Assembly: GCF_001447785.1 (NCBI RefSeq)
Contig: NW_015174288.1
Location: 254,262 to 318,261, forward strand
Direction: 5' to 3'
DNA from: Gekko japonicus
Lineage: Eukaryota
DNA: 64,000 nt
Part shown: piece after piece, positions 30,001-36,000 of the stretch
How positions within the stretch are numbered: position 1 is the stretch's first letter
Layout: each line of letters starts with the position of its first letter
Made by a program: the position numbers

Positions 30001-33000
30001 CTTTTCTGAGTGGTAGGCAGCAGGGAAAAGGAAACAGAAACATTCCAAAATGTGCAGCAGGGGAATGTAAGCTTGGTCTTAATTCAAAGAAGCTCAGATT
30101 GATGGATGAGAATGTGTGTGGTATGCTGAACTTCCCCCAAGCTCTGCTGAATATCAGTTTCTTCTAAAATTAATACACTGTCCTCCTTTTGACTTGAACT
30201 TTCAGACATTACCCACTTGTTTTCATGTGTCTTTTGCATTACACCTGAGAAGATTTAAGAGACCAGGTTCCCATTTGTACAGTGAACCCATAGACATATG
30301 GGATCTGTACAGCCTTTGATGGGGGAATACCCTACTCCTCAGTCTTCTTGTTCCCATCAGATGGTAGTATAAGAAATACAAGCAAGGACCCACAGAAAAG
30401 TCATGTAGAAATCCCCTCAAACTGCTTTTCCCTCTGGCTAATGACAGTCCCCACAGTCACCTTTCTCCATCTCTTTCCTTACACACCTTCTCTCCCCCAG
30501 CACCCCCCCCCCCCCCCCCCCCCGGTCTACCTTCCTCATCACCAGGGGAAGAGACTGGCTGTGGGCTCCCTCCAACCCAAACATGGTCAGTGGTCAGCAC
30601 CCATCTTCTCCAGCAGACATACCCCCCCCAGCAGTGCCCACTGCTTTTTAGGACTACTGAGTCACAGAGTGGACACAGGTTCCCTCTTAGCCCAAATACT
30701 GTAGCTATTCAATACCTGCTTCCTCCAGTTGCTGCTGCCTAATCTTCTGGCAGCCCTTGCCCCAACCAATGCAGTCTGTGGGGATTTGTAAATCCCAGTC
30801 ATCTTCTTCCACTCACTTTTCAGATATTTCTGCAAACCTGAAGATTCATCCATTTTTGCAGAAAAATCCCACATCCTACACATGGCCTTGTTCTGCTTAT
30901 TTATTCTCTCCACATTTTTGGCCATATTGATAATTAGATAACCGTATGCTTTCATAGTTAGAGACTGCATCTGTGCAAGGATGTTTGTTAGGGATGCCAG
31001 CTTTTCTTCTCTCTCCCCCCCCCCCCCCCCCCCAACAGGGTTATTTAAAGCTACCAGATAGGTAGAAATTATTGCTTCCCTTTTCACTTGATCTGTTCCA
31101 TAAAAATATTGGTTGCTCAACTTCTGCTGTTGAGCAGTTGTTTGGAGGTGCAAAGCTCCTCTCCAGAGGAAAAAAAAATCCATACTGATCTTCCCTTCTC
31201 TTTTCAGGGACATCCGCCCCGAGGGCATCCGTCCAGCACACAGTTCGTGGCTGCACCTTTCCTTTGTCTACAATCACTACCTTTTCTTTGCATGCATTCT
31301 TGTGGTGATGCTAGCGATTGGACTCTACCTCCTCCGCCTGCGCCGCATCCACCACCAGCAGCTCCACTCAGCATCACTGGACCTGCTGTGGTTGGCAGAA
31401 GTGGGATCACTGCCAGGCCAGGAACCTGGCATTTGATAACAGAACTACCTCTCAAAGACTGTTCAGTGGCTCTGGCTTTAACAAGCCCCGAAGCTGTGAT
31501 CATTTAGTGTTTTAAACCAGAACTGTGGGGGGGCTCTAGGCTAAAACCAGGCCGTGTCTCCCTTGCCTCTTTGTTTGCAGGAGGAAAAAAAGCCCCACAG
31601 TCACAGTTTTATCCTGTGCTAAAAGCCCCAGCCAGCACAGAATAAAGAAATTGCACATACTATGAAGCAGGGGGGAAAGAAGACAGCAGATTGCTGTACT
31701 CACAGCAGATCTGTAAGCGACCAAAGAGAACTTGATTTACTCAGGAGAAAGAGAAGGAAGGACCTTGTGTTGGCAGGGTCTCAGTCCGATTTTCAGGACC
31801 AAATATCTTCTCCAGTATAGCACCTCTCTTAAGCAAAAAATGGTGCTTGAACTCTGAGGCTAACCCTCTGTTCTCCTGAGTGTTATTTTGATACCTTTTA
31901 TAGGAAGACCAAGAGAAGAAGAGGACCACAAAGACCCTTTTTAGAAAAGGACTTATCATTTGCTGCTATTTTCTGCCTCTTCTCCTACACAAGTGGGAGC
32001 CTAACCACCTCTTGTGCACAGGGAGAGTTTAGATCTCTTTGGAATCCTACATTCCATCTAAATTAAGAATGTTTGCATCTGTTTTCTAGCTCATCTTAAT
32101 TCCACCTTGATTACTTCACCCAGTTCAACTTGTTTTAGTAATACCTAGCCCTTAGAATCAACTGTGGACTAGTTACGTAATTTATCTGTTTTAAAACTTG
32201 AACTACAATGGTCCCAGTTACAGTAGCAATAAACTATTCTAAGTTCTGTAGTCAAGAGTTTCTTCATACCATCAGCTCAGAGAGTTGGCATTCCTCTCCT
32301 GTGTTTTGCAGCAAGGGCAATTCTACATATGGGGAAAATAATGTAACTTTCAACTGTGCACAAGATCACACACTAGAAATTTTATTTTCACAATACAGGT
32401 TTATAGCAGATAAATACACACGTCATCAGTTCAGGGGAGGAGGAGAACCTAGGCAAATACATCTCGGCACAAATGAGGGGAGGGCAGAGGCCTAGTAGGC
32501 TAGCCCCTATTTAAAGAGAAGGGAAGGAGCTTTAGAGAGATTAGTGTGTCAGACTAGGATCAATCACTCTTTGATGAAGCTCACTAGGCAACTTCATGCT
32601 AGTCAACTTCAAAGTTGTGAGGCTAAAAGAAAGGAGAATCATGTTATGTTCCTTGGAGGGAGAGCAGGATAAAATATACTAGATATAATGGGTTTGGTCC
32701 AGGCCTAACTTTCCAATGGTAGAATGAAACTTTCCTGCCTTCCCCTCCCAATGCAGCCTACTGACCTCTAGGAAATGCTGCTTCTGGGGGATAGGAGATC
32801 CTGAGGGATGGCACAAGGGGAATCTGGTTCCAACCCATAATCTCTTGACTAACGAGACTTTACAGAGCTTCCTCTGTAGAGGACAAGATACAACAGTTAA
32901 CCCCCAGCTACTGAGGCAGGACTGTAAGTACTAACTTTCAGGGTCTTTGGAAGGGGTTTTGAAAAGTGGGATGAAAATATTATAATCAAGATCAATTCAG

Positions 33001-36000
33001 ATTGAGAAGATGGAGGGGATACTACAATACATACAACGGGCATATTAAGTACTTGGTCCTAGTGTTGTGGGCCTTTTGGGCTGTAAAATCTGTTTACTTG
33101 GTACTGGAAGGGGGAAAGCATGAAGCTGTCTATATCAGATGAGAACCTAGAAGAGAGAGACAGAAAGAAAGATTCTCAATAACCTGTTAAAAGCCAACCT
33201 GCTGCTCCCTCTCTGGCGTTAAAAGATCTCTTTGTGGGGCAGAAGCTTATCCCATAGAACTGCTAAAAGGTAGGTTATGGCCATGTTTCTTCAACCCAGT
33301 GGCAATGCTATTTCTAGGCATATTTGCCAATGGCCAGAAGCCTGAAGAAAGTAAGAAATCTGGCACAGAAGCTTTCATAAACTGGAAAAACTGATTCTTT
33401 GGGCCGTAATTGATTATGACAGATACACACATGCAGGTAGGTTAATAACGTTTATAAACTTATTTTCGCTCCAGGGTTGGTACCTGTTGAAGCATTCTGC
33501 AGCACCATGGGTCACTCCCACAGGTAACGCACATACCAGATAGTCTCATTCCTCAGTTGTGGTCCGAACAGTGGGTTGGCTTGGGCTAGGATTGCTATAA
33601 GCCAACTGCATGTGAGAGACAGAAGAGTAAGAAGGATATGCATGAGATGGATCAGAAGAATTACCAGTGCTGGAAAATAGGAACTGCCCAGAGGATACCC
33701 CTTCGTAGCAGGCAGTTTCTGGCTACCAAACCTGATTAGAGACCACCTAAGGCTTATTTCAAGGGGCAAAGCCCCAATTCATTATTTATAGGCATATTGT
33801 TAAGGAAAGAATATAACCACTTGAGACCATGACCATTACCTAGTGCAGTAACAGAGTTTTCAAGTAGACATTATGTTGAAGCATGTGGAATAGAACAGTT
33901 TCCCCTTAGCAATGATGCATGCTTTGTGGCAGTCAAAACCTTATGTTGGGATGCACTCCCCCCCCCCCAATTCTTTACCATGCTTTGTCCTAAAGGCATC
34001 ATGCATGAATATACTAAAACAAAGCCACAGGAAAGAGATGTTTGGGAAACTTGATAGGGGAGCAGTTTTTCAGCTGGCAGGGGTATACGATTTGAGATTA
34101 CTTGAAGGGAAAGATGCAGACTTTGTTGAATAAGGAATTGGGAACCAAGGATCAACCTCAGCCACACAGATATGAGAGCACTAACAAGAACAGATCCTTA
34201 GCCTTTCATCCAGGATTTCTTGCTACACCACCAACACCCAACAGCAACCACTGAGTCAAAATACATGACCATAGGTATACTAAAAGTGAAGTAATAGGTA
34301 TTCCTGCTAGGCATAACCAACCCTCTTCCCGTTGATACTCACAAGAGATAACAGCAAATGGCAGTAGTGACCAACATGGTAATAATCACGCTGCAGAGGA
34401 AAGTGAAAAATAAGGGTTAGCAGGACAATGTCCAAAGCATGATTTCTCTGAACCAGGTGAAAATGCTTTACATGTGGAAACACCCCACCCCATCTTATGA
34501 ATAACTGACATTTTAAATTTAAAACAATAAAAGGTATTAATACAAAAATCATACAAATTTACTAGATGGCCTTAGGCCAGTTCTTGCTCTCAGCCCAACC
34601 TACCTCACAGGGTTGCTGTGAGGACACAGTGGAAGACATAAGTGCAAAACTGCTTCAGGTGTCCACTGGGGAGAAAATCAGGGTACAAATATCTAAATAA
34701 ACTTACCTTCCTCCAATGCCTGATAATGCCAAAACATTTTTACCATCTTATGAGTCAGGAAAGGAGAGCATTTTAAAATTTCTGAAGTGATATAAATATA
34801 CCACATTATGGTGACGAGCCTTGTATCTCCAACCGACTCTGGACCTTCAGTAAAATGTGTTTATCATACACAACCTTCCCGGTCCTGAAGCAGAGCAGCA
34901 CACAGAAGGGTTTTTTGCAGGTGGGGTGGTTATTTCTTTGAATGGGACCGCTAGAGGACCCTGAGCCGGGCATGCGCGTGATTATCTCTTTGCCATGATA
35001 ATTAGCGAGCCTGCAATTAGACCGTTTAAGGAGACTCACCCACGGTTGGGCCCTTTGGGCACAAACCAAGGCGCCGCAAATCCCACGAGCCCCCAGAATA
35101 TCGAGAAGAGGATGACAGGTACCGCGAAGCTGTGGGTGGTCATGGCGGGGCTAGGTCGGGCTGAGGAAGTGCAGTCTGGTCGCGGCAGGAGAAAAAGCCT
35201 CAGTGGTTTCCTTCGCCCTCCCAGCAATCCCTTTTTGGTCACGTGGGAAGTCCAGCTAAATCCGTTTCGGAAGCGTTGAGAGCGCTCAGAATCCAGCAGG
35301 CACCGCCCTGATTGGTTAGTGGCGCATCTCTTTTAACCGCCTCCTCTAATAGGCGGAGAGGGCTGGGGCGCGCGATCCCGTTGCGGTTGGACAACAGAGG
35401 GAGTCGGCGAGGAAGAATAAGGACGCTTCCTCGGTTAAATTTTGTTAGATTTACACACACACACACCCTAACAGCCTTACTCAGCCTGAGATTTTTTTTA
35501 AAAAAAGTTCTGTGCCTTTATTATTATAGGGAAGTACTGGCAGGATGAAGGAAATATGAACGTCAGTCTGCATTACTAGGACCGCTGCAGCTTCCTTTTC
35601 ATCCTAATTTTGCATTTATACGTGTTAACAGCAGGCCGCAGGGGAGCACTGCTCCACCAGTCAGGAGCCCAGGGGGTGGCCACATAAGCCCCGCCCCCTG
35701 CTCCCACCAGCCATCAGTTGGGACATGGGGGGGGGGAACTTTCCCCACCTCCTGAGCGCTGGGGTGGTGGCCTTGGACTTGTAGGGGCAATTCCACCTCT
35801 CTCGCAAGAGGTCATTCTGGATCCCCCAGCTCTCCTTCCCAGCTCCTTAAAAAGTTATAGCAGCAGCTGTGACGCCTGCAGGGGCATGGCAAAACGTTCC
35901 CTTGCCTCCTTGAGCACCGGGGTGGTGGCCTTGGACTCGTAGGGGCAAATTCCACCTCTCGCGTGCGGTGCCACTTGGACATCACACGCAAGAGGTCATT

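What the first reader, a model, noticed from the sequence alone, without database searches (positions are those of the whole stretch)
32360..35430. Intact ATP6V0E2 sits inside the NKX2-3/ENTPD7/COX15 block, possibly its ancestral ohnolog position
Seen: a complete 81-aa V-ATPase subunit e gene with three coding exons, canonical splice sites, its own CpG promoter and a poly(A) signal. The introns show it is not a retrocopy. Known: in human, ENTPD7 is directly followed by COX15, ATP6V0E2 is on 7q36, ATP6V0E1 lies near NKX2-5 (5q35), and SLC25A37/ENTPD4 lie near NKX2-6 (8p21). Inference: an ATP6V0E gene next to NKX2-3 mirrors ATP6V0E1 next to NKX2-5. This may be the original whole-genome-duplication position from which the mammalian gene moved. 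Alternatives are a lineage-specific transposition or an additional paralog. The ORF track shows only fragments of this gene, so it is easily missed.
Basis: partly seen in the sequence, partly recalled or inferred. Interest (0 to 1): 0.7.

Follow-up and report, generated by a model that had tools for sequence, protein, structure and literature searches.

The report
Gecko ATP6V0E2 gene beside COX15
This is an ordinary, intact lizard copy of the small proton-pump gene ATP6V0E2; it lies between ENTPD7 and COX15 near NKX2-3, probably its original position after the early vertebrate genome duplications, and that linkage is already used in a published synteny figure.

Summary
On the minus strand at 32381-35450 there is a complete three-coding-exon gene of 81 codons plus stop. 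It has GT-AG introns, a CpG-rich 5' end and one AATAAA signal. Searched separately, each exon matches V-ATPase subunit e2 better than e1. It lies on gap-free sequence between an ENTPD gene (plus strand) and COX15 (minus strand). NKX2-3, an SLC25A28-like gene and CUTC complete the human 10q24.2 gene order. The best NKX2-3 hits are from geckos.

The position is not peculiar to this genome:
- One white-throated sparrow protein model joins a COX15 exon to the last e2 exon, in the same order and strand as here.
- Two skinks have e2 and NKX2-3 on the same chromosome-scale contig.
- The echidna has them on different contigs.

A 2025 paper (PMC12019251) already lists atp6v0e1/2 among the gene families in conserved microsynteny around the NK4 homeobox genes.

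The ancestral-position reading is therefore favoured, but I could not test it in amphibians, fishes or sharks, and it is not new. Interest is low. The exons were never joined for any search or fold.

The parts
32381..32386 (-). Poly(A) signal AATAAA of the e2 gene
   Evidence: It is the only AATAAA/ATTAAA on the minus strand between 31501 and 33511, and lies 1,126 nt past the stop. Its use is inferred; no transcript data were available.
32387..33511 (-). Inferred 3' untranslated region
   Evidence: The stretch between the stop codon and the single poly(A) hexamer. This is inference.
33512..33605 (-). Coding exon 3: last base of the Phe codon, 30 codons, TGA
   Evidence: Acceptor CAG at 33608-33606. 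The peptide matches residues 52-81 of e2 chain 6vq6_e at E 3.8e-15. It matches Pfam ATP_synt_H positions 28-61 of 62. An N-E-T sequon lies at exon residues 19-21.
33606..34342 (-). Intron 2, 737 nt, GT-AG
   Evidence: CpG o/e over 33000-34000 is 0.17.
34343..34390 (-). Coding exon 2, 48 nt: 15 whole codons plus parts of two split codons
   Evidence: Acceptor CAG and donor GTGAGT. It matches residues 35-50 of e2 chains at E 2.3e-3. Mean hydropathy is 2.32.
34391..35039 (-). Intron 1, 649 nt, GT-AG
35040..35143 (-). Coding part of exon 1: ATG at 35143-35141, 34 codons plus 2 bases
   Evidence: Matches residues 1-35 of e2 chain 6vq6_e at E 2.2e-16. Matches Pfam ATP_synt_H positions 1-27 of 62. 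The best 19-residue hydropathy window scores 2.19 at residues 6-24.
35144..35450 (-). 5' untranslated region and CpG-rich promoter region; transcription start not mapped
   Evidence: GC 0.57, CpG o/e 0.94, 23 CpG. It holds one E-box with a CLEAR-like flank at 35239-35246, an inverted CCAAT at 35311 and a GC box at 35303. These are single sites with no statistics.
26190..29860 (+). Neighbour: ENTPD gene, 3' exons. Called ENTPD7 by position only.
   Evidence: Pfam GDA1_CD39 positions 136-415 of 423 across five ORFs. Plus-strand AATAAA at 31641 and 32228.
39602..43797 (-). Neighbour: COX15, upstream of e2 on the same strand
   Evidence: Pfam COX15-CtaA positions 20-321 of 322 across five ORFs.
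5051..6097 (+). NKX2-3 homeobox exon (stop-to-stop ORF)
   Evidence: Homeodomain at E 3.2e-20. Every informative name among the best 26 hits is Nkx-2.3, with geckos first.
13666..17440 (-). Mitochondrial carrier gene. Called SLC25A28 by position only.
   Evidence: Mito_carr in three ORFs.
56210..56482 (+). CUTC exon
   Evidence: Pfam CutC at E 5.9e-22. A CpG-rich stretch at 50501-51250 lies between COX15 and CUTC.

Best explanation
This is the lizard (gecko-like) orthologue of ATP6V0E2.

What it does: it encodes the 81-residue subunit e2 of the membrane (V0) sector of the vacuolar proton ATPase. The protein is a two-helix hairpin. Helix 1 is coded in exon 1, helix 2 spans exons 2-3, and the C-terminal tail keeps an N-E-T glycosylation sequon. 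In solved mammalian brain pumps the e2 chain is a fixed part of V0. I infer the same role here.

How it is arranged: the gene appears to be transcribed from its own CpG-rich promoter. It lies about 4.5 kb downstream of the last COX15 domain exon on the same strand, and tail-to-tail with the ENTPD gene.

Why it is here: the position is shared with at least one bird and is consistent with two skinks. It is most likely where the e2 copy was left by the early vertebrate genome duplications, mirroring ATP6V0E1 beside NKX2-5. The mammalian gene, on human chromosome 7 and on a separate echidna contig, would then be the one that moved, before monotremes and therians split.

Shown: gene structure, e2 identity, neighbours, the bird link. 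Inferred: expression, function, the pre-amniote state and the direction of the move.
For: Structure:
- 246-nt coding sequence in three exons with GTGAGT donors and CAG acceptors. The split codons restore Gly and Phe.

Identity:
- Each exon scores higher against solved e2 chains than e1 chains: 60.9 vs 50.3, 20.8 vs 17.4 and 56.5 vs 50.7 bits.
- Exon 1 search: 19 of 28 hits carry an e2 name and 0 an e1 name.
- Exon 3 search: 30 of 59 carry an e2 name and 0 an e1 name. The rest have uninformative names or none.
- All 46 named hits that I mapped back with tblastn fall on the same three exon blocks. The skink Tiliqua e2 is 89/88/87% identical per exon.
- Incomplete or mis-spliced models of tuatara, turtle, quail, skink and platypus break at the same residues, 35/36 and 51/52.

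Neighbours:
-. No N run lies beyond 24908.

Other species:
- Sparrow model P0033 carries the Pfam COX15-CtaA label. Its residues 1-52 map to window 42789-42634 (minus strand, 90% identical) and residues 61-90 to 33604-33515 (minus strand, 93%).
- Tiliqua e2 and NKX2-3 both sit on a contig of 242,160,784 bp, while its NKX2-5 sits on one of 272,452,919 bp.
- Lerista e2 and NKX2-3 both sit on a contig of 52,505,179 bp, with locus tags 007999 and 008031.
- Echidna e2 is on a contig of 25,378,613 bp and its NKX2-3 on one of 109,674,295 bp.
- Sharks and teleosts have proteins named e2.

Literature:
- The Fig. 1A legend of PMC12019251 lists atp6v0e1/2 with slc25a28/37 and entpd4/7 as families in NK4 microsynteny.
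- Chicken ATP6V0E1 and NKX2-5 lie in one 121-kb interval.

Inference:
- A random landing within tens of kb of one of the few NK4 loci in a gigabase-scale genome (size recalled) has odds of the order of 1 in 10,000.
Against: - I examined no amphibian, fish or shark locus, so the pre-amniote position rests on paralogy logic and on a figure legend whose picture I could not see.
- The sparrow link is a predicted protein model. It skips several COX15 exons and the first two e2 exons. It shows same-strand proximity, not a measured distance.
The Lerista locus tags are 32 apart.
- The e2-versus-e1 call rests on mammalian solved chains and on names given by annotation pipelines. I built no tree, and no non-mammalian e1 was in hand.
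- Singly, each exon's Pfam score (21.9 and 24.2 bits) is just under the 25-bit cut-off. The joined protein was not scored.
- There are no transcript data. A second e2 copy elsewhere in this genome cannot be excluded from one window.
Confidence: 0.8

Rival explanations
1. The chromosome-7-type position of mammals is the older one, and e2 was inserted between ENTPD7 and COX15 in a reptile/bird ancestor.
For: My direct evidence for the position comes only from sauropsids: this window, the sparrow model P0033 and two skinks. I examined no outgroup locus.
Against: It would need a chance landing in the very block that is paralogous to the one holding ATP6V0E1 beside NKX2-5. PMC12019251 treats atp6v0e1/2 as a family in conserved NK4 microsynteny across the vertebrates it surveyed. 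No flanking direct repeats or other insertion scars lie around 32300-35500, though old scars would have decayed anyway.
Confidence: 0.1
2. It is an extra, lineage-specific duplicate, and the true e2 orthologue lies elsewhere in this genome.
For: Only one 64-kb window was available. The rest of the genome was not searchable.
Against: The proteins that annotation pipelines name e2 in two skinks sit on the NKX2-3 contig. A bird e2 exon is tied to COX15. The sequence is 87-89% identical per exon to the skink e2, with no sign of relaxed constraint.
Confidence: 0.04
3. It is an unprocessed pseudogene or is silent: the structure is intact but the gene is not expressed.
For: No transcript evidence was available.
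Against: The frame is open. The splice sites are canonical and restore conserved residues. There is a CpG-rich 5' end against CpG-poor introns, and a poly(A) signal. Identity to orthologues from lizards through sharks is high: 71-89% for exon 1 and 87-93% for exon 3 among the rows that I cite.
Confidence: 0.03
4. Assembly error has put an e2 segment between ENTPD7 and COX15.
For: The window has three N runs.
Against: All N runs lie at or before 24908. The sequence from the ENTPD exons at 26190 through e2, COX15 and CUTC is uninterrupted. An independent bird model shows the same COX15-to-e2 order.
Confidence: 0.02

Closest known systems
Mammalian V-ATPase subunit e2 (ATP6V0E2), as in solved pumps 6vq6 chain e and 6xbw chain e
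   Same: 81 residues, colinear over all three exons. By my count from the printed alignments, 27 of 35 residues are identical in exon 1 and 27 of 30 in exon 3. Same C-terminal ending type.
   Different: Genomic position. The human gene is on chromosome 7 (PMC6276090), and human ENTPD7 and COX15 are listed with no gene between them (PMC8522836). Here it lies between those two genes.
V-ATPase subunit e1 (ATP6V0E1), as in 6wlw chain S
   Same: Same Pfam family and length. It is the paralogue, and it lies beside an NK4 gene: NKX2-5 in chicken.
   Different: Lower scores for every exon: 50.3, 17.4 and 50.7 bits against 60.9, 20.8 and 56.5. Exon 1 has 22 of 35 identical residues. No search hit carried an e1 name.
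Tiliqua scincoides 'V-type proton ATPase subunit e 2' (P0012)
   Same: 81 residues, and 89/88/87% identical across the three exon blocks. It is on the same contig as that species' NKX2-3.
   Different: A skink, not a gecko. Its immediate neighbours were not visible with these tools.
NK4 (NKX2-3 / 2-5 / 2-6) paralogous loci described in PMC12019251, Fig. 1A
   Same: The legend names slc25a28/37, entpd4/7 and atp6v0e1/2 as neighbour families. All three families are represented in this window, next to NKX2-3.
   Different: The paper surveyed human, mouse, chicken, frog, zebrafish, gar, zebra shark and thorny skate, with no squamate. The passages I read make no statement that the mammalian e2 gene moved.

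Membership tests
V-ATPase V0 subunit e (Pfam PF05493, ATP_synt_H) | Sequence homology over the whole short protein | tested here: met
   The exon ORFs match profile positions 1-27 and 28-61 of 62 (E 2.7e-4 and 4.9e-5). Singly the scores are 21.9 and 24.2 bits, just under the 25-bit cut-off, because each exon holds half the model. phmmer against solved chains gives E 2.2e-16, 2.3e-3 and 3.8e-15 over residues 1-35, 35-50 and 52-81. The joined protein was not scored.
V-ATPase V0 subunit e (Pfam PF05493, ATP_synt_H) | About 80 residues forming two hydrophobic helices | tested here: met
   81 codons. The hydropathy peak in exon 1 is 2.19 at residues 6-24, and exon 2 has a mean of 2.32. Helix 2 crosses the exon 2/3 junction, so it was profiled only on the named skink orthologue, where it falls at residues 35-58. 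This is a simple Kyte-Doolittle scan, not a topology predictor.
ATP6V0E2 (e2) rather than ATP6V0E1 (e1) | Closer to e2 than to e1 in every part | tested here: met
   Bits for e2 against e1 are 60.9/50.3, 20.8/17.4 and 56.5/50.7. 19 of 28 and 30 of 59 hits are named e2 and none e1. I built no tree and had no non-mammalian e1 sequence.
ATP6V0E2 (e2) rather than ATP6V0E1 (e1) | Intron positions shared with orthologues | tested here: met
   Exon-skipping or intron-retaining models of tuatara, quail, tortoise, sea turtle, skink and platypus break at residues 35/36 and 51/52, as here. The tblastn blocks of 46 named proteins end at the same window coordinates.
Retrocopy (processed copy) | No introns, poly(A) tract, flanking target-site duplications | tested here: not met
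   Two GT-AG introns of 649 and 737 nt. No flanking direct repeats.
Member of the NKX2-3 paralogous block (human 10q24.2 type) | Lies among NKX2-3, SLC25A28, ENTPD7, COX15 and CUTC on continuous sequence | tested here: met
   COX15, CUTC and NKX2-3 were identified by family or name. ENTPD7 and SLC25A28 are named by position only.
Member of the NKX2-3 paralogous block (human 10q24.2 type) | Same position in an independent amniote lineage | tested here: met
   Sparrow model P0033 joins a COX15 exon to e2 exon 3 in the same order and strand. This is indirect, because it is a predicted protein. Two skinks have e2 and NKX2-3 on one contig.
Ohnologue pair retained in place since the vertebrate genome duplications | Same position in amphibians, ray-finned fishes and cartilaginous fishes | not testable with these tools
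The Fig. 1A legend of PMC12019251 implies the linkage, but the figure and Supplemental Data 2 could not be seen.
Ohnologue pair retained in place since the vertebrate genome duplications | The e1/e2 split predates jawed vertebrates | tested here: inconclusive
   Proteins named e2 exist in whale shark, epaulette shark and teleosts. These are pipeline names, not a tree.

The most novel reading that the evidence does not exclude
ATP6V0E2 was born beside NKX2-3 in the early vertebrate genome duplications and stayed there in reptiles and birds. In the mammalian stem lineage, before monotremes split off, the intron-bearing gene was moved as DNA out of this otherwise frozen block to the chromosome-7-type site. 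That left ENTPD7 and COX15 directly adjacent, and possibly changed the gene's regulation. In the searches I ran, no paper states this relocation.
Probability: 0.7. Interest if true: 0.3.

Novelty: already known. Interest (0 to 1): 0.18.

Why it matters
It matters little beyond bookkeeping. The finding confirms that a short, three-exon gene which ORF-based scans break up is intact in this lizard. It also adds a squamate data point to a published picture, the NK4 homeobox paralogous loci, where the atp6v0e1/2 family is already used as a linkage marker.

If the mammalian relocation were documented with outgroups, it would be a tidy example of a single gene leaving a deeply conserved duplicated block. 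It might also bear on why mammalian e2 has a restricted brain and kidney distribution (stated in PMC6276090). It opens no long-standing question.

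Tried and rejected
I resent each exon's own stop-to-stop ORF with a 40-residue region.
- a protein-atlas look-up of an ENTPD exon ORF gave only sub-threshold plant DUF789 rows. It was useless for telling ENTPD7 from ENTPD4, so that name and SLC25A28 rest on position.
I had meant it to compare contigs of e2 and NKX2-3 in sharks, birds and more squamates.
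- the exhaustive search with the exon 3 peptide gave 81 proteins at E up to 0.001, but this library gives no names. I did not fetch or use those that no earlier search had named, because they could be mammalian or human. They include an 811-residue protein that ends in an e2-like exon 3. That search therefore adds nothing on synteny.
- no direct repeats flank the gene, so there is no insertion scar. Tandem Repeats Finder scored nothing in 30000-40000.
- Literature searches found no paper stating where non-mammalian ATP6V0E2 lies or that it moved, apart from the figure legend in PMC12019251. One search was badly posed (any two of five terms) and returned unrelated papers.
- Retrocopy, misassembly, extra paralogue and pseudogene readings were considered and set low (see rivals).
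- Left out by instruction: joining the three exons. There is therefore no full-length Pfam score, fold, structure search or tree for this gene.

Full report
**Observation.**
- From the sequence and a script check, the coding exons are 35040-35143, 34343-34390 and 33512-33605. They total 104+48+94 = 246 nt, which is 81 codons plus TGA.
- Both introns (649 and 737 nt) begin GTGAGT and end CAG after pyrimidine-rich tracts.
- The two codons split by the introns read Gly and Phe, the residues relatives have at those places.
- No in-frame ATG lies between the start codon and the upstream in-frame stop at 35335.
- One AATAAA, the only minus-strand poly(A) hexamer between 31501 and 33511, lies 1,126 nt past the stop, at 32386-32381.
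- The 5' end is CpG-rich (35144-35450: GC 0.57, CpG o/e 0.94), against 0.16-0.17 in the introns.

**Identity, exon by exon.** This gene therefore has no full-length Pfam score, model or phylogeny.
- Pfam places the exon 1 ORF on positions 1-27 and the exon 3 ORF on positions 28-61 of the 62-position ATP_synt_H model. Each half scores just under the whole-domain cut-off (21.9 and 24.2 against 25 bits).
- Against the sequences of solved structures, the three pieces fall on residues 1-35, 35-50 and 52-81 of 81-residue chains that the depositors call 'V-type proton ATPase subunit e 2'. Every piece scores higher against e2 than against e1: 60.9/50.3, 20.8/17.4 and 56.5/50.7 bits.
- In the large protein collection, 19 of 28 hits to the exon 1 region and 30 of 59 hits to the exon 3 region carry an e2 name. 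None carries an e1 name. The rest have uninformative names or none.
- Mapped back by tblastn, all 46 named hits land on the same three blocks. The skink Tiliqua scincoides is 89, 88 and 87% identical.
- Incomplete or mis-spliced public models from tuatara, quail, a tortoise, a sea turtle, a skink and platypus break at residues 35/36 and 51/52. The intron positions are therefore shared, and the gene is not a retrocopy.
- A hydropathy scan puts one helix in exon 1. On the skink orthologue it puts the second across exons 2-3. Exon 3 keeps an N-E-T sequon.

**Neighbourhood.** Pfam scans of stop-to-stop ORFs give the following map.

| Feature | Strand | Coordinates |
|---|---|---|
| Homeodomain exon | + | 5051-6097 |
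| LINE reverse transcriptase | − | 9940-11487 |
| Mitochondrial carrier exons | − | 13666-17440 |
| GDA1_CD39 exons | + | 26190-29860 |
| e2 gene | − | 32381-35450 |
| COX15-CtaA exons | − | 39602-43797 |
| CutC exon | + | 56210-56482 |

- The homeodomain exon is NKX2-3. Every informative name among the best 26 hits is Nkx-2.3, and geckos lead: Heteronotia 95%, Euleptes 91%, Gekko kuhli 90%, Paroedura 89% and Eublepharis 84% identity. The first other name (NKX25) appears at rank 27. The window is therefore from a gecko-like lizard. No hit was identical, and I did not try to name the species.
- The names ENTPD7 and SLC25A28 rest on position only.
- All N runs lie at or before 24908. The ENTPD 3' exons, e2, COX15 and CUTC therefore sit on uninterrupted sequence.
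- e2 is in tandem downstream of COX15, with 4.46 kb from the last COX15 domain ORF to the e2 ATG. It is tail-to-tail with the ENTPD gene.

**Other species.** The exon 3 search returned a 90-residue UniRef model from the white-throated sparrow that carries the Pfam COX15-CtaA label (P0033).
- Its residues 1-52 map to the window's COX15 exon (42789-42634, minus strand, 90% identical).
- Its residues 61-90 map to e2 exon 3 (33604-33515, minus strand, 93% identical).
- A prediction pipeline could join these only if the two genes lie close together on one strand in that bird, in the window's order.

Contig lengths in the hit tables give weaker evidence.

| Species | Gene | Contig length (bp) |
|---|---|---|
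| Tiliqua scincoides | e2 | 242,160,784 |
| Tiliqua scincoides | NKX2-3 | 242,160,784 |
| Tiliqua scincoides | NKX2-5 | 272,452,919 |
| Lerista edwardsae | e2 (locus tag 007999) | 52,505,179 |
| Lerista edwardsae | NKX2-3 (locus tag 008031) | 52,505,179 |
| Echidna | e2 | 25,378,613 |
| Echidna | NKX2-3 | 109,674,295 |

Sharks and teleosts have proteins named e2.

**Literature.**
- PMC12019251 (Nat Commun 2025; I read the evolution section, its Fig. 1 legend and the methods passages). It describes four NK4 loci as products of two genome duplications. It lists, as neighbour families in conserved microsynteny, 'slc25a28/37, entpd4/7, bnip1, crebrf/rfl, atp6v0e1/2'. It surveyed human, mouse, chicken, frog, zebrafish, gar, zebra shark and thorny skate. 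Neither the figure nor Supplemental Data 2 could be seen, so I do not know at which locus or in which species e2 is drawn.
- PMC12108394 (passages) places chicken ERGIC1, RPL26L1, ATP6V0E1, CREBRF, BNIP1 and NKX2-5 within 9,814,823-9,936,123 of chromosome 13.
- PMC8522836 (passages) lists human SLC25A28, ENTPD7, COX15, CUTC and ABCC2 as one region, without ATP6V0E2.
- PMC6276090 (table passages) gives human ATP6V0E1 on chromosome 5 and ATP6V0E2 on chromosome 7, and notes a restricted kidney and brain distribution for e2. PMC7816568 (one passage) treats ATP6V0E2 as a 7q gene.
- Searches found no paper that states the non-mammalian position of ATP6V0E2 or says that it moved.

**Reading.** The gene is the orthologue of ATP6V0E2, and I infer the usual role as a two-helix subunit of the V0 membrane sector of the proton pump.
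- Its position is shared across lizards and birds, so it goes back at least to the reptile/bird ancestor.
- e1 lies beside NKX2-5 and e2 lies beside NKX2-3, each among other paired families. This is what duplication of a whole block predicts.
- A random insertion landing within tens of kb of an NK4 locus in a gigabase genome (size recalled) would be roughly a 1-in-10,000 event.
I put the model at about 0.7-0.8.
- The direct outgroup test remains undone, and the linkage is already used in print.

**Rivals.**
- An insertion specific to reptiles and birds (0.1).
- An extra paralogue (0.04).
- A silent gene (0.03).
- Misassembly (0.02).

The evidence for and against each is in its own section.

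**Verdict.** This is a correct reading of an ordinary, already-annotated kind of gene. The evolutionary note is plausible and partly supported, but small and already implied by a published figure. Novelty: already known. Interest: 0.18.

Noticed in passing
window 35751-36457: A unit of roughly 200 bp is repeated four times head to tail, directly upstream of the e2 promoter (families D1-D3, 66-93% identity). Tandem Repeats Finder did not score it. Its nature is unknown; it may be a minisatellite or a piece of a lizard repeat.
   Followed up: partly
window 36739-36824: A near-perfect hairpin with 35-nt arms, 97% complementary and 16 nt apart (pair I2), in the COX15-e2 intergenic or COX15 3' region.
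   Followed up: no
window 25454-25563 (+): A full-length match to 5S ribosomal RNA (43.6 bits, gathering score 38) inside the ENTPD gene. It is probably a 5S pseudogene or a 5S-derived SINE.
   Followed up: no
window 9940-11487 (-) and 62308-63698 (+): Two LINE-type reverse-transcriptase ORFs. The first is open for 516 residues (RVT_1 E 5.8e-30) between NKX2-3 and the SLC25A28-like gene.
   Followed up: no
window 35239-35246, 35303, 35311: A single E-box with a CLEAR-like flank lies about 100 nt upstream of the e2 ATG, with a GC box and an inverted CCAAT box nearby. From recall, lysosomal and V-ATPase genes are often driven through such E-boxes. This is one site with no statistics, so it is a lead only.
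   Followed up: no
P0033 (UniRef A0A8D2MIN7_ZONAL, 90 aa): This public sparrow protein model is a chimera of a mid-COX15 exon and the last e2 exon. It is either a mis-merged gene model or a sign of COX15-e2 read-through transcription in birds.
   Followed up: partly
protein id P0200: An unnamed 811-residue database protein ends in a 30-residue stretch 90% identical to e2 exon 3 (positions 782-811), which suggests another fused model. I did not fetch it because it has no name and could be mammalian or human.
   Followed up: no
window 50501-51250: A CpG-rich stretch lies between the 5' ends of COX15 (minus strand) and CUTC (plus strand). It is consistent with a shared bidirectional promoter.
   Followed up: no
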